A DNA stretch of 64,000 nucleotides. Origin: a bacterium. GTDB taxonomy: Bacteria > Hydrothermota > Tepidihabitantia > Tepidihabitantales > Tepidihabitantaceae. The stretch lies in the NCBI GenBank assembly GCA_046485285.1, contig JAWOHE010000089.1:1-64000 (forward strand), read 5' to 3'. How positions within the stretch are numbered: position 1 is the first letter of the stretch; every line of letters begins with the position of its first letter. The position numbers were made by a program, and so were the translations under genes. Below are positions 13,815 to 63,291 of this stretch, piece by piece. The notes beneath the pieces were generated by a model that had not been told where the DNA came from, made no database searches, and was given only the letters and a program-made list of their open reading frames with translations.

Positions 13815-13959
13815 GGGTGCCTCCAATGGGGACAGTCCGGGCGCACACGAAACTCTAGTTTATCCTGCGGCAGGGTCAAACCGGTCGCGGCCGGCGCACC
13901 TCTCGACTCAGGTTCACCAGCCGCCCTGAGTTGTCAATGCCTCCGAGCCGCTTCGGCCC

Positions 13960-14070
13960 TTATCCCCAGCCCCACCCACGGAGCGGCCTCGGGGGGCGGC
14001 TCCGGGGACGGGGGAGGGGGAAATTCGGGCAGGAGACAAGCGTTACAGGACTAGCAGGTTACGGCGTCTG
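13960..14070. repeat. Intergenic G/C-tract element with ~12-bp period
   Basis: cccacggagcgg cctcggggggcg gctccggggacg; shares tcgggcaggagac with the reverse strand at ~37420-37435. Confidence 0.35.
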
Positions 14071-14238
14071 GCGGCCGAGACGCCGCTTTGGCTCATGCTC
14101 AACTGCCCTTACCGAAATTCGGCGCGACGAGGTCCGGCCGCGATGCGGGCAGTACCCGGGCAAAACGGCCGGGTCGGGCAGGGTGGGCTGGGCCGGACAG
14201 GGCGCGGGGGAGAAGTGCGTGTGTCAGGTTCGACTCTG

Positions 14239-15723
14239 CTAGCGCCGCGCCAACTCGGCCCTGAGCGCCCTGATTTCTGATTCCTGGGCTGTGAGCCGTT
14301 CATACAGCGCCTGGATGGCGGCGAGCGAGACGCCGATTGCGTCCATGTTGTTGATGCTGACGTCGTTCTCCCCGAAGCCGAACGCAGCGTGGAAGTCCTG
14401 CGCGACCGGCCCGATATGCCGCGTGCCGTCGTGCTGAGTCTTCATCCGGTAGTCGTGCATTGGCATCGCGGCCAGCTTCTCGAGCAGTTCGCGCCGGTCA
14501 ACCTCGCGGAAGTCGGTCTTGTTGGCCGAGTCACAGGCCGAGGCCCAGGAGTTCGACCCGGCCGCGAGATATGTGCCGGTCGTACTCCCGGCATCTGAAA
14601 AGAACCACGTGCCGCCCTGGGCGCGCACGCGCCACTGGTTGGCCCCGGTAGTGTACACCGAGTCGTTTGCCTCGGAGATGTCGGCCCAGATGAAACTGCC
14701 GTCGTGATTCGCCCGGCCGAAACTGCCGGCCGCGAGACTGCGCTGTCCGCGTGCCGCATTGTTACTGCCGCCCGGGACCGCGGCATCGTCTCCGGCCGCC
14801 AGGTTGCCCGAACCGCCCGACACCGTTGACTTGGAGCCGCTGGCAACGTTGTCGAGGCCGCCGCCGACCGCTGAGCAGTAGCCGCTCGCGACCACGAACT
14901 TGCCGCCGGCCACCGTGGCGTTGGCCGCACTGGCGGTATTATGCCGACCGCCGCCGACCGTCGCATGCGAGTATGTCGCGGCGTTCGCGCCTCCGCCCGA
15001 AACCGTTGCATGGCTGGCCGTCGCCCGATTGCCCGCGCCGCCGGCCACCGTGGCGCCCTCGTCCGCCGCGCCATTCGCATACCCGCCGCTTACCGTGCAG
15101 AAAGGCCAGTCCCAACGCGCGGTGCCGGTGGTACACGCGACACCAAGATTGGCATGGGTGAACCGACGTTCGCCCCAGAGCTCGTTCTCGGCGCCGCCCC
15201 GCGCGATGCCCAGAAGCCTGGTCGTGAACAGTACGCTGTCCGGTCGCGCGCGCGACCAGGCCGAGTCCGCGTTCCCGGCCGCAAGTGCGTGCCCCGCCGT
15301 CTCCGCCTTGAACGCGTATGCCGCGCTACCCAGCCTCAGCCGGGGCGCAAGCTCCACCCCGCCCGCGACCGCCATCCCGAGGTACGCCGCACCCGCGTCC
15401 GGCACCGCTGCGATCGGCGTCACCGACCCGAGCAGGACCGAGAACAGCCCGTCCTTCGTCGTCACGGCTTGCGTCTCGTTCCAGAACGAACTCCCGCCCG
15501 AAGGCTTGCTGTAGAGCCGGAAGACGACCGGGTACTCGCCGTCCGGCACCGGCACGCCGAGCGTGTCGGTCAACTGGCCCTGGTAGGAGAGTAACCTCGG
15601 TATCGTGATGGCATCCGGCGACCAGTCCGCGGAAGTCTGCCCGACACTGCCCTGGGTCTGGGTGATGGCCGCGCCGGCGACCCCGGCCAGCGCGCAGAGC
15701 GCGATGATGAGCGACACTCTCAC
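14239..15723 (-). CDS. Secreted fibre-like protein with Gly-rich repeats and C-terminal peptidase S74/ICA chaperone domain
   Basis: Signal peptide, LSYQG.LTD..G.PVPDG, ATV.GG..N.A repeats, RHIGPVAQDF..AFG.G. Confidence 0.85.
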   Translation of the reverse strand: MRVSLIIALCALAGVAGAAITQTQGSVGQTSADWSPDAITIPRLLSYQGQLTDTLGVPVPDGEYPVVFRLYSKPSGGSSFWNETQAVTTKDGLFSVLLGSVTPIAAVPDAGAAYLGMAVAGGVELAPRLRLGSAAYAFKAETAGHALAAGNADSAWSRARPDSVLFTTRLLGIARGGAENELWGERRFTHANLGVACTTGTARWDWPFCTVSGGYANGAADEGATVAGGAGNRATASHATVSGGGANAATYSHATVGGGRHNTASAANATVAGGKFVVASGYCSAVGGGLDNVASGSKSTVSGGSGNLAAGDDAAVPGGSNNAARGQRSLAAGSFGRANHDGSFIWADISEANDSVYTTGANQWRVRAQGGTWFFSDAGSTTGTYLAAGSNSWASACDSANKTDFREVDRRELLEKLAAMPMHDYRMKTQHDGTRHIGPVAQDFHAAFGFGENDVSINNMDAIGVSLAAIQALYERLTAQESEIRALRAELARR

Positions 15724-50552: not shown

Positions 50553-51785
50553 CTAGTTGCCGGTGTCGGCGCAGTCCTGGCCGGAGAAGCGGGCCTGGTA
50601 GGCTTCCCAGGCCTCGCGGCGGATGCGCTCCATCTCGCAGATGGCGTGCCAGGACTCGTCCTGGCGGCCGAGGAAGAGCAGGGCGTCGGCGAGGGTGACG
50701 TAGGCCTGCTGGGCGTTGGGGTCGAGCCGGATTGCCCGTCGGCTGGAGCTGATTGCGAGGCGGAGGTGGCCGCGGCGGAGGTGGAGGTCGCCGAGCATCG
50801 CGATTGCCCCGGCATCCTCGGGCACGAGCCGGGTGAGCCGGCGCGCGGTGCGGGCGGCGTCGTCGAGCCGGCCGGCCTCGCAGTAGGCCCGGCTGAGCCG
50901 GGCGAGGACGTCGGGGTCGTCCGGTTCCTCGCGAGCGAGCCGCTCGAGGGCGGCGATGGCCTCCGGTCGCATGTTGAAGTGTTCGTAGAAGCCGCTGGTC
51001 AGCTCCGGGGAGTCGCCGAAGCGCTGGGCGATTTCGCCGTAGAGGTCGATGGCGTCGTCGGAGCGGTTGAGGCGGCGCAGGCAGTCGAGGAGGTAGAAGT
51101 GACCGGCCGGTTCGTCGGGCTCGTCGTTGACCGCGCGGGCGAACTCGCCGGCGGCCTGCTCGATCATTCCCTCGTGGTAGTAGTCGCGGCCGAGTTTCTG
51201 GTGGGGGTTCTCGATGTCCGGCGCGACCTCGCGGGCGCGGGAGTACAGGGCGAGCGCGGAGTCGTACTCGCCGTCCATCGCGTAGAAGCCGCCGAGCGAG
51301 ACGAGCGCGCGGACATTGTCGGGCTCGCGCTCGAGCGCGCGCCGGCACGCGGCGACGCCCTTGTCGCGCTCGCCGGAGTATTCGTGGACGACGCCGAGGC
51401 CGAGGATGAGCTCGAGCCGGTCGGGCAGCTCGGCGAGCGCGCCCTCGATGAGGTCCTCGGCGCGCGAGAAGTTGGCGAGGAAGAGGTAGCGGATGCCCTC
51501 GCAAGCCCGGGTCCAGGGGTTGCGGCGGTCGAGCTCGCGGGCGTGGGAGCAGAGCTGTTCGAGGGTGTCTTCCCGAGTGACGATCTGCGCGCAGAGGGCG
51601 GCGAGGTAGTGGGCGCGGAGGTCGTCGGGCGAGTACTCGAGCGCCTCGAGAAACAGCCCGAGCGCCTCGTCCTCGCGCTCGCGGTAGAACTCGGCGAGGC
51701 CGCGCTCGATGAGGCCGCTCGCGGTCGCGATCGACGGCCGGAGCCGGGACCGGGTGCCGCGCCGGGCAGGGGCAGGAGAGTCCAT
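50553..51785 (-). CDS. Tetratricopeptide repeat protein
   Basis: Multiple TPR-like A..L.P.....LG repeats; ATG 51785. Confidence 0.88.
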   Translation of the reverse strand: MDSPAPARRGTRSRLRPSIATASGLIERGLAEFYREREDEALGLFLEALEYSPDDLRAHYLAALCAQIVTREDTLEQLCSHARELDRRNPWTRACEGIRYLFLANFSRAEDLIEGALAELPDRLELILGLGVVHEYSGERDKGVAACRRALEREPDNVRALVSLGGFYAMDGEYDSALALYSRAREVAPDIENPHQKLGRDYYHEGMIEQAAGEFARAVNDEPDEPAGHFYLLDCLRRLNRSDDAIDLYGEIAQRFGDSPELTSGFYEHFNMRPEAIAALERLAREEPDDPDVLARLSRAYCEAGRLDDAARTARRLTRLVPEDAGAIAMLGDLHLRRGHLRLAISSSRRAIRLDPNAQQAYVTLADALLFLGRQDESWHAICEMERIRREAWEAYQARFSGQDCADTGN

Positions 51786-51899: not shown

Positions 51900-52889
51900 A
51901 TGCCGACAATGCGCAAGGCCGCCGTCGCGGCGCTGCTGCTGCCGCTCGTCGCGGGCGCGGCGAGCATCTGTGTCTGGAACTACGACCCGCTGGACCGGTT
52001 CTTCGACCCGGCGGTCGGGGATTCGATTGACTGCAGTTACTGGGTCGAGCGGGTGCTGTCCGAGCAGGGCCACTCGGTCGAGGTACACGACAGCTACCTG
52101 CCCGGGGACATCACGGGCTACGACCTGGTGTTCTGCCTGATGGGCTGGTACCGGTGCTGAGGGGACAACTGCACCGTCGGTTCGACGGAGCGTACCAGCC
52201 TGATAGCATTCCTTCATTCCGGCAAGGCGGTCTACGCCGAGGGTGGGGACTTCGGCTATTCGAACCGCAGCAATGAGTTCTGGCCCTACTTCGGCTGCAG
52301 TTACCTCGGCGACGGCAACGCCTCGGCCAACGTCCAGAGCCTGACCGGCGTGGCCGGGACGTTCGCCGCGGGACTCGCCTTCGGGCATGCCTACGGCGAA
52401 CCGCCCGACGCCTGGGTCGACGAGATCGGGGAGGACGGCGGCACGCTGTTCCTGCGCGACCAGTCCGGCGTCGGCCGGGCGATTCATTACTCGAACTCGA
52501 ACTGGCGAACCGCGTTCTCGGCGCCGGTCTTCGGGGCGATCCGGCCGACCGACCGAACCGACCTGATGCGTGGGATCACGAACTTCCTTCTCGACGGAAC
52601 CGCGGTTGGTGAGCGGCCGGGCGCGGCCGGGCCAGCCGGATTCACGGTCGCGCCGAACCCGGCGCGGCCGGGCCAGCCGGTCCGAGTGCGGGTGCCGGCC
52701 GGGACGGGCAGGGTGACGGTCCACGATGCCTCGGGCCGGACCGTTGCGACGCTCGAACCGGACCACGCCGGCGTGGCGAGTTGGAGCTGCCTCAGGCCGG
52801 ACGGCCGGGCGGTGCCGGCAGGCGCGTACTTCGTGCGCGCGGCGACGGGCGGCCAGACCCTGGGCCGCACGCTGGTGCTGGCTCGGTAG
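51900..52889 (+). CDS. Secreted protein with T9SS/FlgD-like C-terminal domain; in-frame TGA (52158-52160), probable selenocysteine
   Basis: ORFs 51900-52160 and 52350-52889 share one frame and the gap is open and protein-like (GDNC...LIAFLHSGKAVYAEGGDFGY); hairpin follows the TGA. Confidence 0.75.
52171..52191 (+). promoter_or_regulatory. Candidate bacterial SECIS hairpin
   Basis: gc-a-ccgtcg-gtt-cgacgg-a-gc, G-containing loop about 19 nt after the UGA. Confidence 0.6.
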
Positions 52890-52900
52890 CGGGGATTGTC

Positions 52901-52940
52901 GAACGAGCGGCCGGGAGGAGACTCCCGGCCGCCTTCGTTC
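52901..52940. terminator. Strong hairpin between convergent transcripts
   Basis: gaacga-gcggccgggag-gaga-ctcccggccgc-ct-tcgttc. Confidence 0.65.
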
Positions 52941-53101
52941 AGGCGGATGAAATGAGGAACCGCGATGCGTCAGGAGGCCCAACGCACCGCGGTTCCGGTC
53001 CCCATTCAGAGTGCAGGTCGTCGGGCGGTGAGGAGCGCGACACCACCCGGTGAGAGAACCTCACTCTAGCTCGGTCAGACTCTCCTAAGCCCTATGTATG
53101 C
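52901..53101 (-). ncRNA. Candidate sigma54-dependent small RNA (~200 nt)
   Basis: Four hairpins; G-U pairs form only on the minus strand; no credible ORF; follows the -24/-12 promoter. Confidence 0.55.
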
Positions 53102-53111
53102 GCTACTGATA

Positions 53112-53256
53112 TGCACAGAGCGTACCAAAGTCTGGCGATGGTGTCGCTGCGTCTAAGTCATTGATAACAATGCACAACTTCAGAACTGGTAGATGTGACA
53201 GTAGACATCAGCTCGCCTGCGCCGCCGAAATCTGCTGTTCGACTGCCGAAATCTGC
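53112..53256 (-). promoter_or_regulatory. sigma54 promoter with IHF site and tandem activator sites
   Basis: TGG-tacgctctgt-GCA (53127-53112); TATCAA-tgac-TTA IHF match (53166-53154); gccgaaatctgc x2 (53224, 53245). Confidence 0.7.
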
Positions 53257-53283
53257 ACGGCAGCTGGTGACGAAGGTGGCGAG

Positions 53284-54870
53284 CTAGATGCCGTACTCGG
53301 CGATTCTCCGCCGCAGTGTGTCGCGGTGGAGGCTCATCATCTCGGCGGCCCTGGTGATGTTGTTTCCGGAGCGCTCGAGAGCCTCGATAATCGCGTGCTT
53401 CTCGATGGCCTTAATACTAAGGCTCCCGACGAGTCCCTCGAGGGTCTGCCGTCGCTCGGGCCGGGGTGCCCGCTGGCCGAGAAACCGCATCACACCGATG
53501 GTTGAGATGACGTGGCCGACCGAGACCGCCGCGCTGCCGTCGTACTGGGCGCGCTCCCAGGCCTGCTCGAGCAGCGCCCGGAGGGTGCGGAAATTGCCCC
53601 TGAAGACGTCATTGTCACCGCTGATGTACTCGCCGACGAGCTGGTGGACGAAGCGGGCCGCGCCCTCGTCGACCTCGATCGGCCGGGGCCGGCGGGGGCT
53701 GGCGTTGCGCTCCGCGGCGACGAAGCTGAAGAACTCGCGGACGTCGGACTCGACGACCGCGGGGGTCTCATCCTGCCAGCGGTCGATGAGCGACGGGACC
53801 GGCAGGCACTGCTGGACGACCCGGCTGTAGAAGTCGGGCCGGAAGCTGACTACGAGTTCGTCGATCGTGCGGTTGGTCGCGGCAATCACGCGCATATCGA
53901 CCGGGATCTCGCTCGAACTGCCGACGCGCCGGATGCGGCGGTTCTCGATGGTCCTGAGGAGCTTGAGCTGGACCTCGGGGCTGATGTCGCCGATTTCATC
54001 GATGAACACGGTCGAGCCGTTGCCGTACTCGAAGACGCCCTCGCGGTCGCCGGTCGAGCCGGTGAACGCGCCCCGGACGTGGCCGAAAAGCTCGGACTCG
54101 ATGAGGTTGCGGTCGAGCGCGGCGATGTTGACGGCACAGGGCAGGCCGCGGACCGGGTCATCGGGAACGCAGCGCAGACTGCAGCGGTGAAGCGCGTTGG
54201 CGACGAGTTCCTTGCCGACACCCGGTTGGCCGAGTATCAGGACGACCGAGTCGGCAGGCCCGAGCCGTTCGATTTCGTGGGCGAGGAAGACCATCCGGCG
54301 CGAGCGGCCGACGACCATCCGGTGCTTCGCGCGCCACTCGGCCCTGCGCTTCTCGTCGAGCAGCCGCATCGCGAAGGCGTCGACCCGCTCGGCGAGCGGC
54401 TCGAGGTCGGCCCGGTCGGGCGGGACGCTGACCAGATGGCAGAGGCCCTGGGCCGGGTAGAGCATGAAGTGGTGGAAGCGACGCATGCGCTCGTCGTCGG
54501 CATCGCGGGACAGGAGCAGGACCGGCACGATCGGGTCAATCCCGGTCTCCCGCATCAGCGCGTAGATGATCAGGCCCTGGAACTCGCGGGCATTGAAGTC
54601 TCTCGGAACAGGGTAATTCAGCTCGGGGTAGCCGACGAGCTTCCGCTCATCTTCGACCCCGGTGAAGTCAACGCCGATGACGACCGCGGACACGAACCGG
54701 TCCAGGTTGCGGACGTGCCAGTCGCGCAGGGACTCGAAGCAGTCGAGGCCGATCAGCTCGAACTCGCGGCCGAGCCGTCCGTAGTCGAACGAGGTGATGG
54801 CGCTCGAGATGGCCTCGAGCCGACTGCTAACCCCCTCGACGACGATGACGACCGGCAGTTTGGCGTCCAT
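53284..54870 (-). CDS. sigma54-dependent enhancer-binding protein (AAA+, Fis HTH) with atypical N-terminal domain
   Basis: GQPGVGKELVA, ESELFGHVRGAFTGS, FIDEIGD, RVIAATNR, GNFR.L, C-terminal HTH. Confidence 0.93.
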   Translation of the reverse strand: MDAKLPVVIVVEGVSSRLEAISSAITSFDYGRLGREFELIGLDCFESLRDWHVRNLDRFVSAVVIGVDFTGVEDERKLVGYPELNYPVPRDFNAREFQGLIIYALMRETGIDPIVPVLLLSRDADDERMRRFHHFMLYPAQGLCHLVSVPPDRADLEPLAERVDAFAMRLLDEKRRAEWRAKHRMVVGRSRRMVFLAHEIERLGPADSVVLILGQPGVGKELVANALHRCSLRCVPDDPVRGLPCAVNIAALDRNLIESELFGHVRGAFTGSTGDREGVFEYGNGSTVFIDEIGDISPEVQLKLLRTIENRRIRRVGSSSEIPVDMRVIAATNRTIDELVVSFRPDFYSRVVQQCLPVPSLIDRWQDETPAVVESDVREFFSFVAAERNASPRRPRPIEVDEGAARFVHQLVGEYISGDNDVFRGNFRTLRALLEQAWERAQYDGSAAVSVGHVISTIGVMRFLGQRAPRPERRQTLEGLVGSLSIKAIEKHAIIEALERSGNNITRAAEMMSLHRDTLRRRIAEYGI

Positions 54871-55134
54871 TATCGGCGCAGGTCGCGATCAGTCCCGGCA
54901 ATCATCGCGAGGGAATTATATGCCGAAACGCCTATCTGGCAAGCGCCGGGCGCCGCCGCAGAGTTGTGCGCCGGGGCGACGGACCGCCGAAACCAGCGCA
55001 TCGCCGGCCGCCGCTTTCTGCTGCCAACGGCAGGTGGGCCTGTTAAGGGATTCTCCTGACGCGGGGCGATGTCCGGCTTGACTCCCGGCACAGGTCCGGC
55101 AGACTGTCTTGTGATGAGGAAAGGAGCATCCACC

Positions 55135-55722: not shown

Positions 55723-57303
55723 ATGGCGGCCTGGTTCCTTCTCGCAACGCTGGCCGCGGCGCTGTCCGGCTCGGGCGACGCGCGGGGCGCGGCCGGCCCT
55801 GCGCCGGTGAAGGAGCTTGACCGCGCCGAGGCGGTCACCCGGCCGGCGGCCGGCCGGCGGGCGGACGTCGAGCCGGGGAGCGGCAGGGTGGAGTTCGCCG
55901 CCGGGACGGTCGACACCACGGCGGTGAGCGCGTTCGGGGCCGCGGCGGACGAGCGCGGGAGGATATGGCTAGCGATCGCCGGCCGGGACGCGTGGCTCCG
56001 GGTCCTGCGGTCGGAGGACCTCGGGTCGAGCTGGGAGCAGCTCTTCACCTTCCCGACCGGCACCGATGTGCCGAGGGTGGAGGTCGTGACCGGCCCGGGC
56101 GACTCCGGGTGCGTGTTCGTCTTCTACCTGACCGTTGCCCGGGCCGGCGACCTGCGGGCGCTGCGGATCGGGCCGGGCGAGAGCCTCGAGGTGCTGGACT
56201 TCGAGGTCGCGGTCGGGCCGGACACGATAACCGCCTTCTCGGTCGCGGCCGACCGCGACCGCCACTACTACCTCTACCTGCTCTATGCGAACGAGACTCG
56301 CGCCGGCAACAACGCCAGCTTCACCCGGTCGCTTGACTATGGCAAGAGCTGGGAGATTCCCCAGAGCTGGTGGAACTGCCTCGACCCGTGCGTTGTCTAC
56401 GGCTCGGGCTCGACGGTGCACTGCGCCTGGCGCTACGCGGCCAACGGCCGGGAGATCCACGTCGAGACGAACCGCTGGCACGGCCGGCCTCGGAACTGGT
56501 GGGGGCACGCGCGGGTGAGCCGTGCGGCGCAGAGCGTCGGCGAGCCGACGGTGGCCCAGCTCGACACCTGCAACGATGCCCGCGGCGCGACCTGGGTGGC
56601 GTGGACAGTCGCGGACCGGTCCGGTCGCCGGCGCAACATCGAGTACGCCCGGAGCGACGACGGCGGCGGGGGCTGGACCTACGTCGGGCCGCCCGCCGAT
56701 GAGCCGTTTCTCGACCGCTGGGCGCCGGTACTGGCCGCCGCGCCGGGCCGGCCGTACGGCCCGGTCCAGCTCGGCTACGTCGCGGGCCGGATCGGAGCGG
56801 ACACGACCGATACGATGCCGGGCAGGACCGGGCTCCGGTGGCGGACGACGACCCACGCCGACCGCGCGAGCTGGTCGGCCGCGAGCGGCGTCGGCACCGG
56901 GCCGTTCGCATCGGGCCCGGGCGTCAAGCCCCGGCTGGTCATCCCGCCCGGCGCGCCCAAGGGCTGGCCGCTCGCAGTCTACAGCCGCCGCTCGCCGACC
57001 GGGGCGCGCGGGGTGTACGCGAGCGCGCCGTGGCCGGGCGGGTCCGAGGACGGACCGGTCGCCGACCGGGGCCGCGGGAGCGCGCGGGCGGTCCTGGCCG
57101 GCCGGACGCTACGGCTCGAGCCGGTGCCGGACGGGCCGGTGCGGATCGAGCTGTTCGACGCGTCGGGCCGGCGCGCCGGCCGCACGGCCGTCGTCGCGGG
57201 CGGCGCGGCCGAGCTCGAGTCAGACCCGCCGGCCGGGACGCTGTTCGCCCGGGTGACCGGCTGGCCAGCGACCGTGACGTTGCGGGTGTTCGTCGCCCGC
57301 TGA
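55723..57303 (+). CDS. Secreted BNR/Asp-box (sialidase-like) protein with degenerate C-terminal sorting domain
   Basis: RSEDLGSSW, RSLDYGKSW, RSDDGGGGW; C-terminal LFDASGR. Confidence 0.75.
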   Translation: MAAWFLLATLAAALSGSGDARGAAGPAPVKELDRAEAVTRPAAGRRADVEPGSGRVEFAAGTVDTTAVSAFGAAADERGRIWLAIAGRDAWLRVLRSEDLGSSWEQLFTFPTGTDVPRVEVVTGPGDSGCVFVFYLTVARAGDLRALRIGPGESLEVLDFEVAVGPDTITAFSVAADRDRHYYLYLLYANETRAGNNASFTRSLDYGKSWEIPQSWWNCLDPCVVYGSGSTVHCAWRYAANGREIHVETNRWHGRPRNWWGHARVSRAAQSVGEPTVAQLDTCNDARGATWVAWTVADRSGRRRNIEYARSDDGGGGWTYVGPPADEPFLDRWAPVLAAAPGRPYGPVQLGYVAGRIGADTTDTMPGRTGLRWRTTTHADRASWSAASGVGTGPFASGPGVKPRLVIPPGAPKGWPLAVYSRRSPTGARGVYASAPWPGGSEDGPVADRGRGSARAVLAGRTLRLEPVPDGPVRIELFDASGRRAGRTAVVAGGAAELESDPPAGTLFARVTGWPATVTLRVFVAR

Positions 57304-57372: not shown

Positions 57373-58008
57373 ATGATGAGCCGCAACTACCGACGGTCGG
57401 CCCGACTCGCCGCCGTCGCCCTCCTGGCGGCGGGCGCGTTGCTGATGGGTGGTGCCGAATGCGACCCGTTCCTGGACGGGGATTTCGAGCCGACCGGGAC
57501 GCCGTTCAGCCTGAACTCGAACCTGGAGCTGACGAGCATCACCGGCGGACCGCAGCCGGTGCCGACCGGCACCTACACGATCGACATGACCTGCCGGGCG
57601 ACCGGCGGCGCGCCGGCGAACCAGGCCTTCCCGGCCGGGCTGTTGTTCAGTTCGACGAAGAACCGGGTCCAGCACGTGGTCGTGCTCAAGTCGCAGAGCG
57701 CGAACTTCGACGTCGCCGGGAGCCGGCGGTCGGTCGGGGTATTCTGCTGCAACCGGTTTCGGCGGACGCCGGACCAGCTCGACACCTTCGACCTCGGGCC
57801 GGTGACCGACAACGGCCAGCTCCAGGAGATTGCCGCGCTGGTCGGCGCCAAGGACATCTCGGGCAACGCGAACCTGTGGCTGGTCCAGCGGGCGGTCTGG
57901 ATGGTGACCGACTCGACCGGGCTGACCCAGGCCTACCGCGACTCGCTGGCCGCCCTGCCGGCGGCGATGCCGCGAGGGCCGGGTCGGGAGTGGATCGCGC
58001 GGCAATGA
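57373..58008 (+). CDS. Lipoprotein with thioester-domain-like motifs (Cys form)
   Basis: Lipobox-like GAEC, PAGLLF, VFCCN...P, VQRAVWMVTD; paralog of 55135. Confidence 0.7.
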   Translation: MMSRNYRRSARLAAVALLAAGALLMGGAECDPFLDGDFEPTGTPFSLNSNLELTSITGGPQPVPTGTYTIDMTCRATGGAPANQAFPAGLLFSSTKNRVQHVVVLKSQSANFDVAGSRRSVGVFCCNRFRRTPDQLDTFDLGPVTDNGQLQEIAALVGAKDISGNANLWLVQRAVWMVTDSTGLTQAYRDSLAALPAAMPRGPGREWIARQ

Positions 58009-59387
58009 GCGAGGCGGTCGGTATGCGCGCGGTCCTCGAGCAGGCGCTCGCCGGGCTCGCGGTCGACTACGCCGACCTCCGGGTCGAGGAGACCGAGCGC
58101 TCGACGGTGCAGTACCGCGGCGAGGAGCTCGAGAGCGTCGGCCGCAACTTCGAGCGCGGCGGCTGCCTGCGGGTGTTCCACCGCGGCAACTGGGCGGTCG
58201 CGTCGTTCAACGGGATCGACGAGGGACTGGCCGGGCTCGCCCGGGAGCTCGCGCGGCAGGTCGAGGAGCTGCCGGCACAGGAGGGGATGGTCGCGCCGTT
58301 GCCGCCGCACGTCGAGACGGTGCGGCTCGACCCGGCGCACGACCCGCGCAAGCACGGCCTCGCCGAGAAGCGCGCGCTCCTCCATCACTACAACAGCATC
58401 CTGACCTCGACGCCGGGCATCGTCTCGACGGTCGCCCGCTACCTGGACGAGCACCGGTTCGTCTCCTTCCTTTCGACGGAAGGGCGGTACCTCGACCAGG
58501 AGTCGGCCGACTGCGGGTTCCACGTCCGGGCGGTGGCGCGCGACGGCGCCGACATCCAGGACTACGGCGACGGGTTCGGCAAGCCCCAGGGGTTCGAGGC
58601 GCTCCGCCACAAGGAGGCGCTGGTCGAGCGGGTGGCGAAGGTGGCGCGGGACCTGCTCAAGGCGGAGCCGGTCGCGGCCGGCCGCTACGCGGTGATCGTC
58701 GACCCGCTGCTGGCCGGGGTGTTCTGCCACGAGGCGTTCGGGCACCTGGCCGAGGCGGACCACGTCGCCGACAACCCGCAGCTCCGGGAGATGATGAAGC
58801 CGGGGATGAGGCTCGGCGTCGACGAGCTGACGATTGTCGATGACGCGACGGCGCCGGGCGAGCGGGGGAGCTTCCGGTTCGACGACGAAGGCGCCGCCGC
58901 GGCGCGGACCGAGCTCATCCGCCACGGCGTGCTCGTCGGCCGCCTGCACGACCGGCAGACCGCCCAGGCGATGAACGAGCCGCCGACCGGCAACGGCCGG
59001 GCGCTGTCGTACCGGCACCCGCCGCTGGTCCGGATGTCGAACACCTACATCGAGCCGCGCGAGGCCGAGCTCGACGACATGCTCGACCGGACCGAGCGCG
59101 GGCTCTACGTCTGTGGCAGTCGGGGCGGGATGACCGAGCTCGAGAGCTTCACCTTCTCGGCCCAGTACGCGTGGCTGGTCGAGGATGGCCGGAAGACGCG
59201 GATGGTGCGCGACGTGACGCTGGCCGGCAACGTCTTCGAGACGATGAAGAACATCACCGACATCGGCGACGACCTGGTGCTGTTCGGCGGGCTGGGCGGG
59301 TGCGGCAAGGCCGGGCAGGGGCCGCTCCCGGTCGGGCTGGGCGGTCCACACCTCAGGATCCGCGACGTGACGGTGGGCGGGAGGTGA
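58005..59387 (+). CDS. tldD: TldD metalloprotease
   Basis: HEAFGHLAEAD, FDDEG, RMSNTY, GCGKAGQ. Confidence 0.93.
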   Translation: MSEAVGMRAVLEQALAGLAVDYADLRVEETERSTVQYRGEELESVGRNFERGGCLRVFHRGNWAVASFNGIDEGLAGLARELARQVEELPAQEGMVAPLPPHVETVRLDPAHDPRKHGLAEKRALLHHYNSILTSTPGIVSTVARYLDEHRFVSFLSTEGRYLDQESADCGFHVRAVARDGADIQDYGDGFGKPQGFEALRHKEALVERVAKVARDLLKAEPVAAGRYAVIVDPLLAGVFCHEAFGHLAEADHVADNPQLREMMKPGMRLGVDELTIVDDATAPGERGSFRFDDEGAAAARTELIRHGVLVGRLHDRQTAQAMNEPPTGNGRALSYRHPPLVRMSNTYIEPREAELDDMLDRTERGLYVCGSRGGMTELESFTFSAQYAWLVEDGRKTRMVRDVTLAGNVFETMKNITDIGDDLVLFGGLGGCGKAGQGPLPVGLGGPHLRIRDVTVGGR

Positions 59388-60694
59388 CGGTGCGGGCGGA
59401 CGCGATACTGGCGATGGCCCGGCACCGGGCGGATGCCGCCGAGGTCTACGACGAGGAGTCGGACCGCACCGTCGTCGAGTTCCGGGGCGGCCGGTTCCAG
59501 TCGCAGGTGACGCGACTCACCCGCGGCTGCGGGCTCCGGGTCATCAAGGACGGCCGGCTAGGGTTCTCGTCCTCGACCAACGACGAGCGCTACGACGAGC
59601 TGGTCGACGCGGCGCTCGAGACCGCGGTGCTGGGCCGGCCGGCGGCGTTCGGGTTCGCCGGGCCGGCGGCGATGCCGACGGTCGCCGCCTGCGAAAGCCG
59701 GGTGATGCTCCACCCGCTGGCGCGGATGATCGAGTGGGGCCGCGAGCTGTGCGCGGCGATGCGGGCGCGGGTGCCGGAGCTCGCGCTCGACCTGGCCTTC
59801 GACCGGACCTGGCACGAGACCCGGGTCCGGACGACCGCCGGGCTCGAGGCGGAGTCCGCCCGGGCGACGTTCGAGCTGGCCGCGAGCGGGGTCATCGCCG
59901 GCGACGGCATCTTCTGGCTACCGGAGTACGTCAACCTCTCCGACGGCCGGCACTTCGACCCGGGGCCGCTCTGCGACCGGCTCGAGGCGGCGGCACGTCG
60001 GGGCCGACGCCGGGCCCGGCTGGCGAGCGGGACGCACCCGGTCATCGTCCTGCCACTGGCGCTGCCGGCCCTGCTCGCGCCGCTGCGGGCCGGGGTCGAC
60101 GGCCGCCAGGCCGCCCGGCGTACCTCGCCGCTTGCGGGCCGGGAGGGCGAGCGGATCCTCGCCGGCGTGCTGACCATCAGCGACGACCCGCTCCGGAGCC
60201 ACGGGCTCGAGAGCACACCGTTCGACGGCGAAGGACTGCCGGCCCGGCGCAACCCGCTGTTCGAGCGCGGGGTCTTCCGGGGCTTCCTGCACGACCTCGC
60301 CTCGGCCGCGGCCGTGGGCGCGGAGAGCACCGGCTCGGCGCGGCGCGACTACGCGAGCCCGCCCGGGCCGGGGGTGAGCAACCTCGAAATCGAGCCGGGG
60401 ACAACGCCGCTCGAGCAGGCGATCGCGGCGACCAGCGACGGCCTGCTGGTCGCCGGCTTCGTCGGCGACGGGCAGTCGAACGTCCTCGCCGGCGAGGTCG
60501 CACTCAACGCGACCTCGGCGTTCCGCATCGAAGGCGGCGAACTCGCGGGCCGGGTTAAGGACGCGATGGTCGCCGGCAACGTCTATGAAATGCTCGCGTC
60601 GGTGGACCTGGTCGGCGCGGAGGTCCGCGACCTCGGCCGCCAGTTCCTGCCCTGGCTGCGGTTCCCGGCGCTGAGAGTGGCGACCCGGGACTAG
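59384..60694 (+). CDS. pmbA: TldE/PmbA partner protein
   Basis: GLRVIKDGRLGF, DDPL, PFDGEG, STGSA.R; lacks HExxH. Confidence 0.88.
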   Translation: MTVRADAILAMARHRADAAEVYDEESDRTVVEFRGGRFQSQVTRLTRGCGLRVIKDGRLGFSSSTNDERYDELVDAALETAVLGRPAAFGFAGPAAMPTVAACESRVMLHPLARMIEWGRELCAAMRARVPELALDLAFDRTWHETRVRTTAGLEAESARATFELAASGVIAGDGIFWLPEYVNLSDGRHFDPGPLCDRLEAAARRGRRRARLASGTHPVIVLPLALPALLAPLRAGVDGRQAARRTSPLAGREGERILAGVLTISDDPLRSHGLESTPFDGEGLPARRNPLFERGVFRGFLHDLASAAAVGAESTGSARRDYASPPGPGVSNLEIEPGTTPLEQAIAATSDGLLVAGFVGDGQSNVLAGEVALNATSAFRIEGGELAGRVKDAMVAGNVYEMLASVDLVGAEVRDLGRQFLPWLRFPALRVATRD

Positions 60695-60726
60695 CCGGGC
60701 AAGGACCTGGAGAACAGGAGGCGACA

Positions 60727-63291
60727 TTGACGAAGGCAAAGCTGACCGCACTCGAGAAGAAACTCGCGCTCGGGCCGGGCGCGCTGGCGTGGACCTGCCC
60801 GCCCGGGTGTCTCAAGTTCACGACCACCGACGACATCAAGCCACCCGCGGCCGACCCCGGCGACGACCACTGCGGCATCGTCGGCCAGCGCCGGGCGGTT
60901 GACGCGCTTGCGCTCGGGCTCGAGATAAAGGCCTCGGGCTACAACGTCTTCGTCACCGGGCCGGTCGGCACGGGCCGGACGACGACGGTCCGCCAGCTCC
61001 TCACGCGCTACGAGCGGGCGCCGCGCCGGCTCGACGACAAGTGCTACGTCAACAACTTCAAGGACCCGGACCAGCCGATCCTGCTTCGGCTGGCGGCCGG
61101 GGCGGGCCGGCGGTTCGCGCGGGAGCTGGACGAGTTCGTCGAATACCTCGCCGCCAACCTGCCCAACCAGTTCGAGAGCGAGGCCTACCAGCACAGCCGG
61201 GCCGCGATCGTCGAGTCGTTCAAGGAACGGGGCGGGGGCAAGGTCCGCGAGTTCGAGAAGAAGGTCGCCGCGGCCGGGTTCGCGCTCGTCCAGGTCGCGC
61301 CGTTCGTCAAGCCGGAGCTGGCGCCGATCGTCGAGAAACAGCCGGCGAAGATGGACGCCCTGCCGGCGCTGGTTGATGAGGGGCGGCTGACCATGGCGCG
61401 GGCGGACGAGATCCGCAAGAGCCACCGGGAACTGACGGGCGAACTCGCGGCGATCTTCAAGGAGATCCGCGGCGACGAGCGCGAGGCCCGCGAGGCGCTC
61501 GAGGCGCTTGACCGGGGCGTGGTCGAGCCGGTGCTCGGCGAGCGGCTCGGCGACATTGCCGACCACCACCCGGGCGAGAAGGTCAAGGCCTGGCTCGACG
61601 ACGTCAAGGAGTCGATCCTCGGCAACATCGACCTGTTCCGGAGCCAGCCCCAGGCCGAGAAACCGGCGCCGGGCGCGGTTGACCCGTACCTCGAGTACCG
61701 GGTCAACGTGCTGGTCGACAACCGCCGGACGAAGGGCGCGCCGATCGTCTTCGAGACCAACCCGAACTACAAGAACCTGTTCGGGACGATCGAGCGGGTG
61801 GTTGACCGGTCCGGCCAGTGGCGGACCGACTTCACGAAGGTCAAGGCCGGGTCGGTCCTGCGCGCGGACGGCGGCTTCCTCGTGCTGAACGCGCTCGACG
61901 TGCTGGTCGAGCCCGGGGTCTGGCCGGCGCTGAAGCGGACGCTGCGCAACCGGCGGCTGGAGATATCGGCCTACGAGCCGTTCCTGTCGATGCTGTCGCT
62001 GACGGCGATGAAGCCGGAGCAGGTCGCGATCGACATCAAGGTCGTGATGGTCGGCGACCCATACGTCTACTCGGTGCTGGCGGCCTACGACGAGGACTTC
62101 CGGAAGATCTTCAAGGTCCGGGCCGACTTCGACTGGGTGATGGACCTCGACGACCACGCCATCGGCCAGTACAGCCGGGTCATCAAGCTGCTCTGCGACA
62201 ACGAGAAGCTGCTCCCCTTTGACCGGAGCGGCGTCAAGCGGGTCGTCGAGCACGGCGTCCGGCTGGCCGGGCGGCAGGACAAGCTCTCGACCCGGTTCAA
62301 CATCGTCGGCGACGTGCTCAAGGAGGCGAGCTACTGGGCGGCCCGGACCGGGGCGAAGCGCGTCAGGGCCGCGCACGTCCAGCAGGCAATCGACGGCCGG
62401 CGCGAGCGGGTCAGGCTCTACGAGGATAAGCTCCAGGAGCTGATCGACCGGGGCACGGTGTTCATCGCCACCGCGGGCCGGGCGCAGGGCCAGGTCAACG
62501 GGCTGGCGGTCTACGACACCGGCGAGCACGCCTTCGGCAAGCCGGCGCGAATCACCGCGAAGACCGGGGTCGGCGCGGCCGGCATCATCAACATCGAGCG
62601 CGAGTCGGCGCTGTCCGGCCCGACCCACGACAAGGGCGTCTACATCCTCACCGGGTACCTGCGCAACAAGTACGCCCGGCGCCGGCCGCTGGTGATGTCG
62701 GCATCGATAACCTTCGAGCAGAGCTACGGCGGGGTGGACGGCGACTCGGCCTCGTCGACCGAAGTCTACGCCCTGCTCTCCGACCTCGCCGGGCTCGGCA
62801 TCCGGCAGGACCTCGCGGTCACCGGCTCGGTGGACCAGCACGGCCGGGTCCAGCCGATCGGCGGCGTCAACGAGAAGGTCGAGGGGTTCTACGAGGTCTG
62901 CGTCCGGCGCGGTCTCACCGGCCGGCAGGGCGTCATCATCCCGAAGGCCAACGCCGGCGACCTGATGCTCCGGCCGGACGTGGTCGAGGCGGTCGGGAAG
63001 GGGAAGTTCCACGTCTACGCGGTCGAGACGATCGACGACGGCATCGAGCTGCTCACCGGGGTCCCGGCGGGCAAGGCGAGCCGCGGTGGTGCCTACCCGC
63101 CGGGCTCGGTCCACGACCGGGTCGCGAAGCGGCTCGAGGAGCTCGCCGAACTCCAACGGCGCTACGAGGGCGACGGCGCGAAGCCGGCCGCGAAGAAGCG
63201 CGGGGCCGGGCTCAGGAAGCGCGGCGAGGCGGGGCCGGCGCGGCGGTCACCCGCGCCGCGCGGACGAGGTCGGCGAAGCCCGCGGGCTTGA
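60727..63291 (+). CDS. Lon-like AAA+ protease (S16, LonC-type)
   Basis: GQ.RA, GPVGTGRTT, GQVNGL, FEQSYGGVDGDSAS, PIGGVNEKVEGF. Confidence 0.92.
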   Translation: MTKAKLTALEKKLALGPGALAWTCPPGCLKFTTTDDIKPPAADPGDDHCGIVGQRRAVDALALGLEIKASGYNVFVTGPVGTGRTTTVRQLLTRYERAPRRLDDKCYVNNFKDPDQPILLRLAAGAGRRFARELDEFVEYLAANLPNQFESEAYQHSRAAIVESFKERGGGKVREFEKKVAAAGFALVQVAPFVKPELAPIVEKQPAKMDALPALVDEGRLTMARADEIRKSHRELTGELAAIFKEIRGDEREAREALEALDRGVVEPVLGERLGDIADHHPGEKVKAWLDDVKESILGNIDLFRSQPQAEKPAPGAVDPYLEYRVNVLVDNRRTKGAPIVFETNPNYKNLFGTIERVVDRSGQWRTDFTKVKAGSVLRADGGFLVLNALDVLVEPGVWPALKRTLRNRRLEISAYEPFLSMLSLTAMKPEQVAIDIKVVMVGDPYVYSVLAAYDEDFRKIFKVRADFDWVMDLDDHAIGQYSRVIKLLCDNEKLLPFDRSGVKRVVEHGVRLAGRQDKLSTRFNIVGDVLKEASYWAARTGAKRVRAAHVQQAIDGRRERVRLYEDKLQELIDRGTVFIATAGRAQGQVNGLAVYDTGEHAFGKPARITAKTGVGAAGIINIERESALSGPTHDKGVYILTGYLRNKYARRRPLVMSASITFEQSYGGVDGDSASSTEVYALLSDLAGLGIRQDLAVTGSVDQHGRVQPIGGVNEKVEGFYEVCVRRGLTGRQGVIIPKANAGDLMLRPDVVEAVGKGKFHVYAVETIDDGIELLTGVPAGKASRGGAYPPGSVHDRVAKRLEELAELQRRYEGDGAKPAAKKRGAGLRKRGEAGPARRSPAPRGRGRRSPRA

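What the first reader, a model, noticed from the sequence alone, without database searches (positions are those of the whole stretch)
52901..53256. sigma54 activator linked to a ~200-nt structured RNA with anti-Shine-Dalgarno loops
Seen: downstream of the activator gene lie tandem gccgaaatctgc sites 21 bp apart, an exact WATCAAnnnnTTR IHF site and a GG-N10-GC promoter, all oriented to the minus strand. The predicted transcript from ~53101 has no credible ORF. It folds into hairpins at 53050-53064, 53023-53048, 52956-52996 (19 bp, 3 G-U) and 52901-52940; the G-U pairs become A-C mismatches on the other strand. Three hairpins carry CUCCU at or near the loop. Known: this is the standard sigma54 promoter layout, and C-rich loops pair with RBSs in some sRNAs. 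Inference: an undescribed activator-sRNA module, convergent on and sharing a hairpin with the candidate selenoprotein gene.
Basis: partly seen in the sequence, partly recalled or inferred. Interest (0 to 1): 0.8.

Follow-up and report, generated by a model that had tools for sequence, protein, structure and literature searches.

The report
Activator-linked sigma-54 small RNA family
A previously uncatalogued non-coding RNA gene of about 150 nucleotides lies directly behind the gene for its own sigma-54 activator in one family of uncultivated WOR-3 bacteria; a few model bacteria already show this layout, so it is a new example and not a new principle.

Summary
On the minus strand, downstream of the activator gene (53284-54870), lie two copies of a 12-mer enhancer site, an IHF-consensus site and a GG-N10-GC promoter (53127-53112). 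A transcript of about 150 nt follows (about 53101-52950).

A covariance model finds this RNA in 38 of 44 genomes of one WOR-3 family and in 0 of 88 genomes from the 13 other families of the class. In 39 of 45 testable loci it sits directly behind an orthologue of the activator, with a -24/-12 promoter. It has no conserved ORF and no Rfam match. It ends in a strongly covarying terminator hairpin.

The activator is an orphan NtrC-type response regulator with a divergent receiver domain.

- The CUCCU "anti-Shine-Dalgarno" loops are specific to this genus. The invariant loop motif is GCGCUC.
- The fourth hairpin (52901-52940), next to the convergent gene, is not part of the conserved RNA.

The activator-plus-sRNA layout is already known (PxrR-Pxr, NtrC-NrsZ, CbrB-CrcZ). 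The same enhancer 12-mer marks two further sigma-54 promoters in this genome; one drives a second short RNA.

Function and targets remain unknown, and no expression data could be found.

The parts
53284..54870 (-). Sigma-54 activator (bEBP) gene, 528 aa. It has a divergent receiver-like N-terminal domain (1-185), an AAA+ sigma-54 interaction domain with GAFTGS and Walker motifs, and a Fis-type HTH.
   Evidence: Pfam Sigma54_activat 1.4e-46 and HTH_8 1.6e-12. Every NCBIfam equivalog falls below its cut-off. Sequence read. AlphaFold2 model of residues 1-190: pLDDT 80.1, pTM 0.80. All the top Foldseek matches are receiver domains. 16 full-length orthologues align over the N-terminal domain.
54915..54942 (-). 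Sigma-70-like promoter match in front of the activator gene (TTGCCA-16-TATAAT).
   Evidence: Consensus scan, 11 of 12 positions. This is a consensus match only.
53224..53263 (-). Upstream activating sequence. Two copies of GCAGATTTCGGC (53256-53245 and 53235-53224), 21 bp apart; the first lies within the inverted repeat CTGCCG-N9-CGGCAG (53263-53243).
   Evidence: The exact 12-mer occurs 4 times in the genome against 0.24 expected, always upstream of a -24/-12 element. Relatives carry one or two TGCCG-N7-CGGCA sites at about -100 to -165 from the model match; two sites about 21 bp apart were found in 8 of 47 loci.
53154..53166 (-). IHF-consensus site TATCAATGACTTA between the enhancer and the promoter.
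   Evidence: Exact WATCAANNNNTTR. Two HU/IHF-family genes are present in the genome. The strict consensus is present in only 5 of 47 homologous loci.
53112..53127 (-). Sigma-54 promoter TGGTACGCTCTGTGCA (-24 GG, -12 GC).
   Evidence: rpoN is present in the genome. A match of at least 8 of 11 consensus positions lies upstream of 44 of 52 homologues.
52950..53101 (-). Conserved non-coding RNA, about 150 nt. The start is predicted, not mapped.
   Evidence: Only this stretch is conserved by BLAST in relatives. Model R1 scores 131 bits at 53102-52958. Model R2 scores 103 bits at 53109-52958.
53052..53086 (-). 5' hairpin domain (P2 GAGAG/CUCUC enclosing P3 GACC/GGUU) holding the near-invariant GACCGAG.
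   Evidence: RNAalifold. P2 is 89% paired and P3 91% paired over 52 sequences. A natural paralogue replaces the inner part with a short loop and keeps the outer stem.
53023..53048 (-). Hairpin P4 (GGGUGGUG/CACCGCCC) presenting the loop UCGCGCUCCU. GCGCUC is the conserved motif.
   Evidence: Stems differ between genera, for example GGUGAUG/CAUCACC and GAGGAGGG/CCCUCCUC, read. In one common register it is 73% paired. GCGCUC is present in 48 of 51 homologues.
52997..53022 (-). Conserved linker with no assigned pairing partner (…CACUCU-N4-GGGGACC…). In other genera it reads CACCAGUCAACACUCUCGACGGGGACC.
   Evidence: Alignments A4 and A6. GGGGAC is present in 39 of 51 and ACUCU in 35 of 51 homologues.
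52956..52996 (-). Terminator-type hairpin, 19 bp with 3 G-U pairs, followed by UCAUUUCAU.
   Evidence: 98.8% of cells are paired, and 9 of 11 pairs have changes on both sides. Relatives have a U-run after it. The strict terminator scan finds none here.
52901..52940 (.). Extra GC-rich hairpin, not part of the conserved RNA. It lies 12 nt after the stop codon of the convergent plus-strand gene.
   Evidence: It lies outside both model matches. It is absent from L011, L012 and L013.

Best explanation
This is a stand-alone, non-coding regulatory RNA gene of about 150 nt (about 53101-52950, minus strand). It is transcribed by sigma-54 RNA polymerase when the protein encoded immediately upstream binds the paired enhancer sites at 53263-53224 and opens the -24/-12 promoter at 53127-53112. 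That protein is an orphan NtrC-type response regulator with a divergent receiver domain. An IHF/HU-type bend may help in this genome.

The RNA folds into a 5' hairpin domain, a second hairpin that displays an invariant GCGCUC loop, a conserved linker of about 25 nt with no assigned pairing partner (…ACUCU…GGGGACC), and a terminator hairpin.

Shown here: conservation of the RNA, its fixed position behind the activator, the promoter and enhancer motifs, the absence of a conserved ORF, and covariation in the terminator.

Inferred: transcription and its start point, that this particular activator binds these sites, and that the RNA acts in trans. Action through the invariant loop and the conserved linker is the most likely route, and no Hfq was found. 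The signal and the targets are unknown.
For: - BLAST in relatives conserves only the predicted transcript body.
- Model R2 finds the RNA in 38 of 44 genomes of the family, in 12 of 15 genera, usually as one copy. It finds it in 0 of 88 genomes of the 13 other families of the class.
- An activator orthologue (43-66% identity) lies directly upstream on the same strand in 39 of 45 loci that have at least 400 nt of upstream sequence.
- A -24/-12 match of at least 8 of 11 positions lies upstream of 44 of 52 hits.
- rpoN is present. The activator has GAFTGS, Walker A and Walker B motifs.
- Copies of the RNA that are not next to the activator still carry two CTGCCG-N7-CGGCAG sites 21 bp apart plus a TGGCAC…TTGCT promoter.
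- In this genome the exact enhancer 12-mer occurs only 4 times (0.24 expected), each time upstream of a -24/-12 element.
- The longest ORFs in 51 homologues run from 2 to 42 codons, in differing frames and positions.
- Terminator helix: 98.8% paired, with 9 of 11 pairs changed on both sides. 5' domain: 81.7% paired, against 42-61% when partners are slid by 1-3 columns.
- Rfam gives no match at gathering score in the window, and none at E<=0.1 in 8 homologous loci.
Against: - There is no expression evidence. No RNA run was listed, so the start, the end and transcription itself are predictions.
- Covariation outside the terminator is modest, and it was counted on an alignment fitted to the model. 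On the plain MAFFT alignment only the terminator helix showed column-level covariation.
- P4 does not align in one register across genera (73% paired).
- In this genome the terminator hairpin lacks a clear U-run.
- The genome has 8 strong bEBP genes. Assigning the enhancer sites to this one rests on conserved adjacency alone.
- Six loci have enough upstream sequence but no activator next to the RNA: 2 are paralogues, 2 are metagenome contigs and 2 are weak hits.
Confidence: 0.72

Rival explanations
1. One reading: the RNA acts through several CUCCU (anti-Shine-Dalgarno) loops that pair with ribosome-binding sites of target mRNAs.
For: In this genome three hairpins carry CUCCU at or near the loop. 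A weak, non-significant likeness to the C-rich-loop sRNA family ar14 was seen (RF02344, 19.2 bits, E=0.82). CCUC-rich stretches such as CCUCACC occur in 28 of 51 homologues.
Against: - GCGCUCCU is kept in only 12 of 51 homologues, at least two CUCCU in 3 of 51, and three in 0 of 51. The invariant part of the loop is GCGCUC (48 of 51).
- The 3' CCUCCU is a variable terminator tail in relatives; in genus g3 it reads GUAGUGUUUUU.
- The fourth hairpin is not conserved.
- The ar14 score is far below its gathering score of 58.8.
Confidence: 0.12
2. The RNA is a structured protein-binding or ligand-binding RNA and not a base-pairing sRNA. Its many near-invariant nucleotides that are unpaired in the model (GACCGAG, GCGCUC, ACUCUC, GGGGACC) would form tertiary contacts or a binding surface, for example a loop-loop contact GAGC:GCUC.
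For: - Near-invariant blocks lie outside the modelled helices (alignments).
- GAGC and GCUC can pair in 47 of 48 sequences that have letters at those positions.
- GUCCCC:GGGGAC is an alternative pairing in most genera.
- Neither Hfq nor CsrA was found, although the genome is only 88% complete.
Against: - The candidate tertiary pairs never change on both sides, so they are untested by covariation.
- There is no repeated motif of the kind seen in protein-sequestering RNAs (read).
- No partner protein is evident among the conserved neighbours.
Confidence: 0.22
3. The RNA is a cis-acting leader or attenuator for a downstream gene, the TPR protein gene at 50553 to about 51780 (minus strand). In this genome an inserted gene has separated the two.
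For: A TPR orthologue (53-56% identity) follows the RNA on the same strand in L012 and L025. In this genome it follows after the inserted plus-strand gene at 51900-52889.
Against: - This holds for 2 loci besides this genome, out of the 29 examined. In L038 the TPR gene is on the opposite strand.
- The RNA ends in a terminator hairpin, with a U-run in most relatives.
- Paralogous copies sit elsewhere in the genome.
Confidence: 0.05
4. The region encodes a small protein (the 41-codon GTG ORF at 53064-52939).
For: The ORF is open in this genome.
Against: - No Shine-Dalgarno sequence lies at a suitable distance.
- A 1-nt indel against L003 changes the frame.
- The longest ORFs in 51 homologues differ in frame, place and length, from 2 to 42 codons.
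Confidence: 0.02

Closest known systems
PxrR (Nla19) / Pxr sRNA of Myxococcus xanthus
   Same: An NtrC-like response regulator gene lies immediately upstream of the sRNA gene. The intergenic region of about 260 bp holds a predicted sigma-54 promoter and an upstream enhancer-binding region. The sRNA has several stem-loops, and the pair is conserved together across a lineage (passages read in PMC5684412).
   Different: PxrR has a partner histidine kinase gene, pxrK, beside it; here no kinase gene is adjacent. There is no sequence or model likeness: nothing in Rfam matches, though that Rfam holds a Pxr family is my recollection and comes from no call. The phylum is different (WOR-3).
NtrC / NrsZ of Pseudomonas aeruginosa
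   Same: The sRNA is encoded in the intergenic region between ntrC and a tail-to-tail neighbour. It is transcribed from an RpoN promoter and depends on NtrB/C, and conserved loop motifs carry the function (passages read in PMC4253122). The geometry matches this window: activator, then sRNA, then a convergent gene.
   Different: NrsZ is built of repeated, processed stem-loop units; no such repeats are seen here. NtrC has a canonical receiver domain and a kinase.
CbrB / CrcZ and CrcY of Pseudomonas
   Same: A sigma-54 activator directly activates sRNA genes, with IHF assisting between the activator sites and the GG-N10-GC promoter. The activator also controls further promoters, and some species have paralogous sRNAs (passages read in PMC6296734).
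   Different: According to those passages CrcZ acts by sequestering the Crc protein. The CbrB sites are non-palindromic subsites; here they are inverted repeats of the TGCCG-N7-CGGCA type.
Alphaproteobacterial ar14 (Rfam RF02344)
   Same: Two hairpins with C/U-rich CCUCCU loops gave a weak alignment to 52902-52997.
   Different: The score was 19.2 bits against a gathering score of 58.8, with E=0.82. The matched part includes the hairpin that is not conserved, and relatives give no match.

Membership tests
Sigma-54-dependent, bEBP-activated promoter | -24 GG and -12 GC elements spaced GG-N10-GC, close to TGGCAC-N5-TTGCW | tested here: met
   TGGTACGCTCTGTGCA at 53127-53112. At least 8 of 11 consensus positions match upstream of 44 of 52 homologues.
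Sigma-54-dependent, bEBP-activated promoter | rpoN present in the genome | tested here: met
   Sigma54_DBD at 156 bits, above the cut-off, at G000:C37.
Sigma-54-dependent, bEBP-activated promoter | Activator with an AAA+ domain carrying the GAFTGA loop and Walker motifs, plus a DNA-binding HTH | tested here: met
   Pfam Sigma54_activat and HTH_8. GQPGVGKE, FIDEIGD and GAFTGS were read.
Sigma-54-dependent, bEBP-activated promoter | Enhancer (UAS) sites about 100-200 bp upstream | tested here: met
   Repeats at 53224-53263. Genome-wide the 12-mer occurs 4 times against 0.24 expected. TGCCG-N7-CGGCA with up to 2 mismatches occurs in 35 of 47 loci, although some hits near -235 lie inside the activator coding sequence.
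Sigma-54-dependent, bEBP-activated promoter | Transcription start and dependence on sigma-54 and the activator shown by experiment | not testable with these tools
   No RNA run was listed.
Stand-alone bacterial sRNA gene | Conserved sequence and structure without a conserved ORF | tested here: met
Stand-alone bacterial sRNA gene | Intrinsic terminator (hairpin plus U-run) at the 3' end | tested here: inconclusive
   The hairpin covaries strongly and is followed by U-runs in most relatives. In this genome the tail is UCAUUUCAU and the strict scan finds no terminator.
Anti-Shine-Dalgarno (C-rich loop) sRNAs such as ar14 (RF02344) | C/U-rich loop motif conserved across homologues | tested here: not met
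   GCGCUCCU in 12 of 51 homologues; at least 3 CUCCU in 0 of 51.
Anti-Shine-Dalgarno (C-rich loop) sRNAs such as ar14 (RF02344) | Score at or above the Rfam gathering threshold | tested here: not met
   19.2 bits against 58.8. Nothing found in relatives.
NtrC-family response regulator (REC-AAA+-HTH) | N-terminal receiver fold | tested here: met
   AlphaFold2 pLDDT 80.1, pTM 0.80. The listed top Foldseek matches are almost all receiver domains or whole response regulators, for example FleR 7w9h_A at E=4.7e-5 and target TM-score 0.65. Pfam Response_reg does not match.
NtrC-family response regulator (REC-AAA+-HTH) | Phospho-acceptor Asp, acidic pocket and conserved Lys; cognate histidine kinase | tested here: inconclusive
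   D68 is nearly invariant. The acidic pair is DD in 8 of the 16 orthologues and EG in this genome. I saw no conserved Lys after strand 5. An insertion of about 30 residues follows strand 3. No kinase gene is adjacent.

The most novel reading that the evidence does not exclude
The RNA is not an ordinary base-pairing sRNA. It would be a compact structured RNA whose near-invariant nucleotides outside the helices form a tertiary core (for example a GAGC:GCUC loop-loop contact) that binds a protein or a small molecule. It would be the principal output of an orphan bEBP with an atypical receiver domain. That bEBP would run a small regulon made largely of RNAs: in this genome, this RNA, a second RNA of about 90 nt on contig C57, and perhaps a third transcript on C90.
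Probability: 0.2. Interest if true: 0.65.

Novelty: new member of a known kind. Interest (0 to 1): 0.5.

Why it matters
Almost nothing is known about regulatory RNAs in uncultivated candidate phyla. One full-text search for 'WOR-3' together with 'small RNA' returned a single, unrelated paper.

This is a clean case that can be followed by computation. The RNA family has a built-in handle on its regulation: a dedicated activator, defined enhancer sites and a sigma-54 promoter. It also comes with a ready covariance model and 52 sequences. The module could be rebuilt in a laboratory host to find the signal and the targets.

It also adds a distant lineage to the recurring pattern in which a sigma-54 activator gene is followed by its own sRNA gene.

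Tried and rejected
- **RNA evidence:** no RNA holder was listed for 52850-53350.
- **Target search:** a scan of the genome for 10-mers complementary to the loop and the linker gave 431 hits dominated by GC-rich coding sequence. It was uninformative and was dropped.
- **Covariation on plain MAFFT alignment A4:** only the terminator helix showed changes on both sides at more than one pair position. Structure-aware MAFFT (Q-INS-i) was not installed.
- **Inner helix 'P3b' (AGC/GCU):** 59-69% paired, so it was dropped.
- **IHF:** the strict consensus is not conserved, present in 5 of 47 loci.
- **Word-based protein search with the activator's N-terminal domain:** it found only one other protein. 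Orthologues were taken from genomes instead.
- **Hfq and CsrA:** not found in this 88%-complete genome. This does not show they are absent.
- **Second RNA on C57:** model R2 gave no match at E<=1e-5 to the three other promoter loci, L160-L162. BLAST finds the C57 RNA in 2 of 4 genomes of the same genus and in no other genus searched (3 of 31 genomes including this one).
- **Helix P1:** a long-range 5'/3' pairing (GCUGG/CCAGU) is 83% paired overall. In this genus I found only weak 4-5 bp candidates for it.

Full report
**What is in the sequence**

All features below are on the minus strand. The activator gene ends at 53284. Downstream of it lie, in order:
- an inverted repeat CTGCCG-N9-CGGCAG (53263-53243);
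- two copies of GCAGATTTCGGC (53256-53245 and 53235-53224), 21 bp apart, the first inside that repeat;
- an exact IHF consensus, TATCAATGACTTA (53166-53154);
- TGGTACGCTCTGTGCA (53127-53112), with GG and GC spaced as in sigma-54 promoters, which puts the start near 53101.

- 53064-53050;
- 53048-53023 (8 bp, loop UCGCGCUCCU);
- 52996-52956 (19 bp, 3 G-U pairs);
- 52940-52901.

The 209-nt stretch folds far better than shuffles. The z-score is -5.9 on the minus strand and -4.7 on the plus strand. Rfam gives nothing at gathering score in the whole window. Its best weak hit here is ar14: 19.2 bits, E=0.82, against a gathering score of 58.8.

**Organism and conservation**

An exact-pattern scan of reference genomes hit three contigs. 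Two carry the title "candidate division WOR-3" and the third "uncultured bacterium".
- BLAST against 40 related genomes conserved only the predicted transcript body (query positions 206-354, that is 53085-52937), in 4 of them.
- A first covariance model (R1) found the RNA in 30 of 44 genomes of the family. It found none in 22 genomes of the other four families of the order.
- A metagenome pattern scan reported 100 stretches and listed 80. R1 confirmed 17 of these, 12 of them new distinct sequences.
- A second model (R2) was built from 41 sequences. It finds the RNA in 38 of 44 family genomes (12 of 15 genera), usually once per genome. It finds none in 88 genomes of 13 other families of the class.
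- The six family genomes without a hit are 63-97% complete.
- Eight homologous loci gave no Rfam match at E<=0.1.

**Link to the activator**

R2 gave 52 hits on the loci held. Of these, 45 have at least 400 nt of upstream sequence.
- In 39 of the 45, an orthologue of the window's activator ends 119-194 nt upstream on the same strand. This range covers the newly added loci printed; identities of 43-66% are.
- The six exceptions are the second copies in two g9 genomes (L056, L057), two metagenome contigs (L100, L127) and two weak hits (L181, L183).
- A -24/-12 element matching at least 8 of 11 consensus positions precedes 44 of the 52 hits.
- The g9 second copies are not beside an activator. They still carry two CTGCCG-N7-CGGCAG sites 21 bp apart and a TGGCAC…TTGCT promoter. 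This argues that the sites, and not mere adjacency, tie the RNA to its regulator.
- Sites of the TGCCG-N7-CGGCA type (up to 2 mismatches) lie at about -100 to -165 from the model match in many loci. In total 35 of 47 loci have at least one site, but some hits near -235 fall inside the activator's coding sequence and should be discounted.
- The strict IHF consensus is present in only 5 of 47 loci. This genome has two HU/IHF-family genes.

**The activator**

- Pfam finds the sigma-54 interaction domain and a Fis-type HTH, but nothing in residues 1-186.
- All NCBIfam equivalogs (NorR, RtcR, NifA, NtrC and others) fall far below their cut-offs.
- GQPGVGKE, FIDEIGD and GAFTGS are present.
- Sixteen full-length orthologues align through the N-terminal domain.
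- An AlphaFold2 model of residues 1-190 has pLDDT 80.1 and pTM 0.80. It shows a five-stranded alpha/beta fold with an insertion of about 30 residues after strand 3.
- Foldseek against the PDB puts receiver domains and whole response regulators at nearly every listed rank. Examples are FleR 7w9h_A (E=4.7e-5), FrzS, PhoB and NtrX. In all, 91 matches have E<=0.001.
- D68 is nearly invariant. The acidic pair is DD in 8 of the 16 orthologues but EG here.
- No kinase gene is adjacent; the genes on the activator's 5' side are divergent.
- A sigma-70-like promoter match precedes the activator gene.
- The genome has rpoN and 8 strong bEBP genes.

**The RNA**

No ORF is conserved.
- The 41-codon GTG ORF of this genome loses its frame against L003.
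- The longest ORFs in 51 homologues are 2-42 codons, in differing frames and positions.

Conserved blocks were read:
- a 5' G-rich stretch;
- GACCGAG;
- GAGGUUCUCUC;
- a hairpin loop GCGCUC;
- a linker that reads CACCAGUCAACACUCUCGACGGGGACC in most genera and CACUCU-N4-GGGGACC in this genus;
- a GC-rich terminal hairpin, followed by U-runs in most relatives.

Pair counts were made on the 52-sequence alignment, which is fitted to the model and therefore leans towards it.
- Terminator helix: 98.8% of cells paired, with changes on both sides at 9 of 11 pairs.
- The 21 pairs of the 5' domain: 81.7% paired, against 42-61% when partners are slid by 1-3 columns. 0 of 500 shuffles reach the observed covariation score.
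- By helix: P1 83%, P2 89%, P3 91%, P4 73%.

Other structural observations:
- On the unfitted MAFFT alignment only the terminator showed column-level covariation.
- Stems around the GCGCUC loop differ between genera. Examples are GGGUGGUG/CACCGCCC here, GGUGAUG/CAUCACC in L123 and GAGGAGGG/CCCUCCUC in L113. They do not share one register.
- In the g9 paralogue the inner part of the 5' hairpin is replaced by a short loop and the outer GGAGAG/CUCUCC stem is kept.
- GAGC (in GACCGAGCC) and GCUC (in the loop) could pair in 47 of 48 sequences that have letters at those positions. Neither side ever changes on both sides, so this stays a hypothesis.

- GCGCUC is in 48 of 51 homologues, but GCGCUCCU is in only 12 of 51.
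- 28 of 51 have one CUCCU, 3 have two and none has three.
- The CCUCCU after the terminal hairpin is a variable tail.
- The hairpin at 52901-52940 lies outside both model matches, which end at 52958. It is missing in relatives.
- That hairpin sits 12 nt after the stop codon of the convergent gene at 51900-52889. This gene has an in-frame TGA and is absent from this position in all but one (L041) of the 18 wider relative loci compared. The "shared hairpin" is therefore a local feature of this genome.

**Regulon in this genome**

The exact 12-mer occurs four times (0.24 expected): twice here, once on C57 and once on C90. Each copy lies about 130 nt upstream of a -24/-12 element.
- **C57.** The promoter (TGGCACGGGAATTGCA, 11 of 11, with an IHF-consensus site) is followed by about 90 nt that end in a hairpin plus UUUU. 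This looks like a second short RNA. BLAST finds it in 2 of 4 genomes of the same genus only. R2 does not match it.
- **C90.** The promoter precedes a 74-codon ORF with poor third-position GC (0.69, against about 0.9 in real genes here), so this transcript may be non-coding too.
- **C22.** A third promoter has a perfect CTGCCGCAAACTGCGGCAG site plus a second site 21 bp away. It precedes a gene for a protein with an N-terminal hydrophobic, signal-like segment and no family match.
- The three transcripts from this locus, C57 and C22 share AGGAGUCUG or AGGAGAGUCUG near the 5' end.

**Function**

Neighbours give little help.
- The TPR gene follows the RNA on the same strand in L012 and L025 only, among the 29 loci checked.
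- A 526-aa protein with no family match is divergent from the activator in 10 of 18 loci.
- TldD/PmbA and a LonC-like protease are nearby.
- Hfq and CsrA were not found in this 88%-complete genome.

My best reading is a trans-acting regulatory RNA that works through the invariant loop and/or the conserved linker. A protein-binding or ligand-binding structured RNA is the main rival.

**Comparison with known systems**

The layout is known from three systems:
- nrsZ lies between ntrC and a tail-to-tail gene, behind an RpoN promoter (PMC4253122, passages).
- CbrB activates crcZ and crcY, with help from IHF (PMC6296734, passages).

This is therefore a new RNA family and a new lineage for a known kind of module. 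One full-text search for 'WOR-3' plus 'small RNA' returned one unrelated paper. I ran no other search for prior description. Supplementary files were not consulted.

Noticed in passing
G000 contig C57, minus strand, about 4700-4375 (locus L160): A second candidate sigma-54 sRNA. It has the same enhancer 12-mer, an IHF-consensus site (TATCAAGACGTTG) and a perfect TGGCACGGGAATTGCA promoter. About 90 nt follow, ending in the hairpin AACAGGACUGC…GCAGUCCUGUU plus UUUU. BLAST finds it in 2 of 4 genomes of the same genus. Model R2 does not match it.
   Followed up: partly
G000 contig C90, minus strand, about 7340-6914 (locus L161): The same enhancer 12-mer and a CGGCACGCAATGTGCA promoter precede a 74-codon ORF whose third-position GC (0.69) is far below that of real genes here. 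It may be another non-coding transcript. The next gene is convergent.
   Followed up: partly
G000 contig C22, plus strand, 13825-14464 (locus L162): A perfect palindromic site CTGCCGCAAACTGCGGCAG, a second site 21 bp away, a (GA)n run and a GGGCACAAATGTTGCA promoter precede a gene for a protein with an N-terminal hydrophobic, signal-like segment (MRTLLTLMLL…) and no Pfam match. The gene is cut off by the contig end. Its 5' UTR shares GAGGAGUCUGG with the RNAs at this locus and on C57.
   Followed up: partly
window 51900-52889 (+): A gene with a signal peptide and a T9SS/FlgD-Ig-type C-terminal domain has one in-frame TGA (…GWYRC*GDNC…). Here it appears as an insertion between the RNA and the TPR gene that follows the RNA directly in L012 and L025.
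   Followed up: no
window 55723-57303 (+): A 526-aa protein with no Pfam or NCBIfam match is transcribed divergently from the activator. An orthologue (37-47% identity) lies in the stretch around the activator in 10 of 18 relative loci. In L041 and L043, where I compared coordinates, it is directly adjacent and divergent.
   Followed up: partly
window 57459-63291 (+): Two TldD/PmbA-type metallopeptidase genes and a LonC-like AAA+ protease gene. They recur near the activator-RNA locus in 6-7 of 18 relative loci, on either side of it.
   Followed up: no
loci L056 (G020:C145) and L057 (G041:C27): Genus g9 has a second, shorter copy of the RNA away from the activator. It lacks the GACCGAGCC…GAGGU insert but keeps the GCGCUC loop, the linker, the terminator, the enhancer sites and the promoter.
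   Followed up: yes
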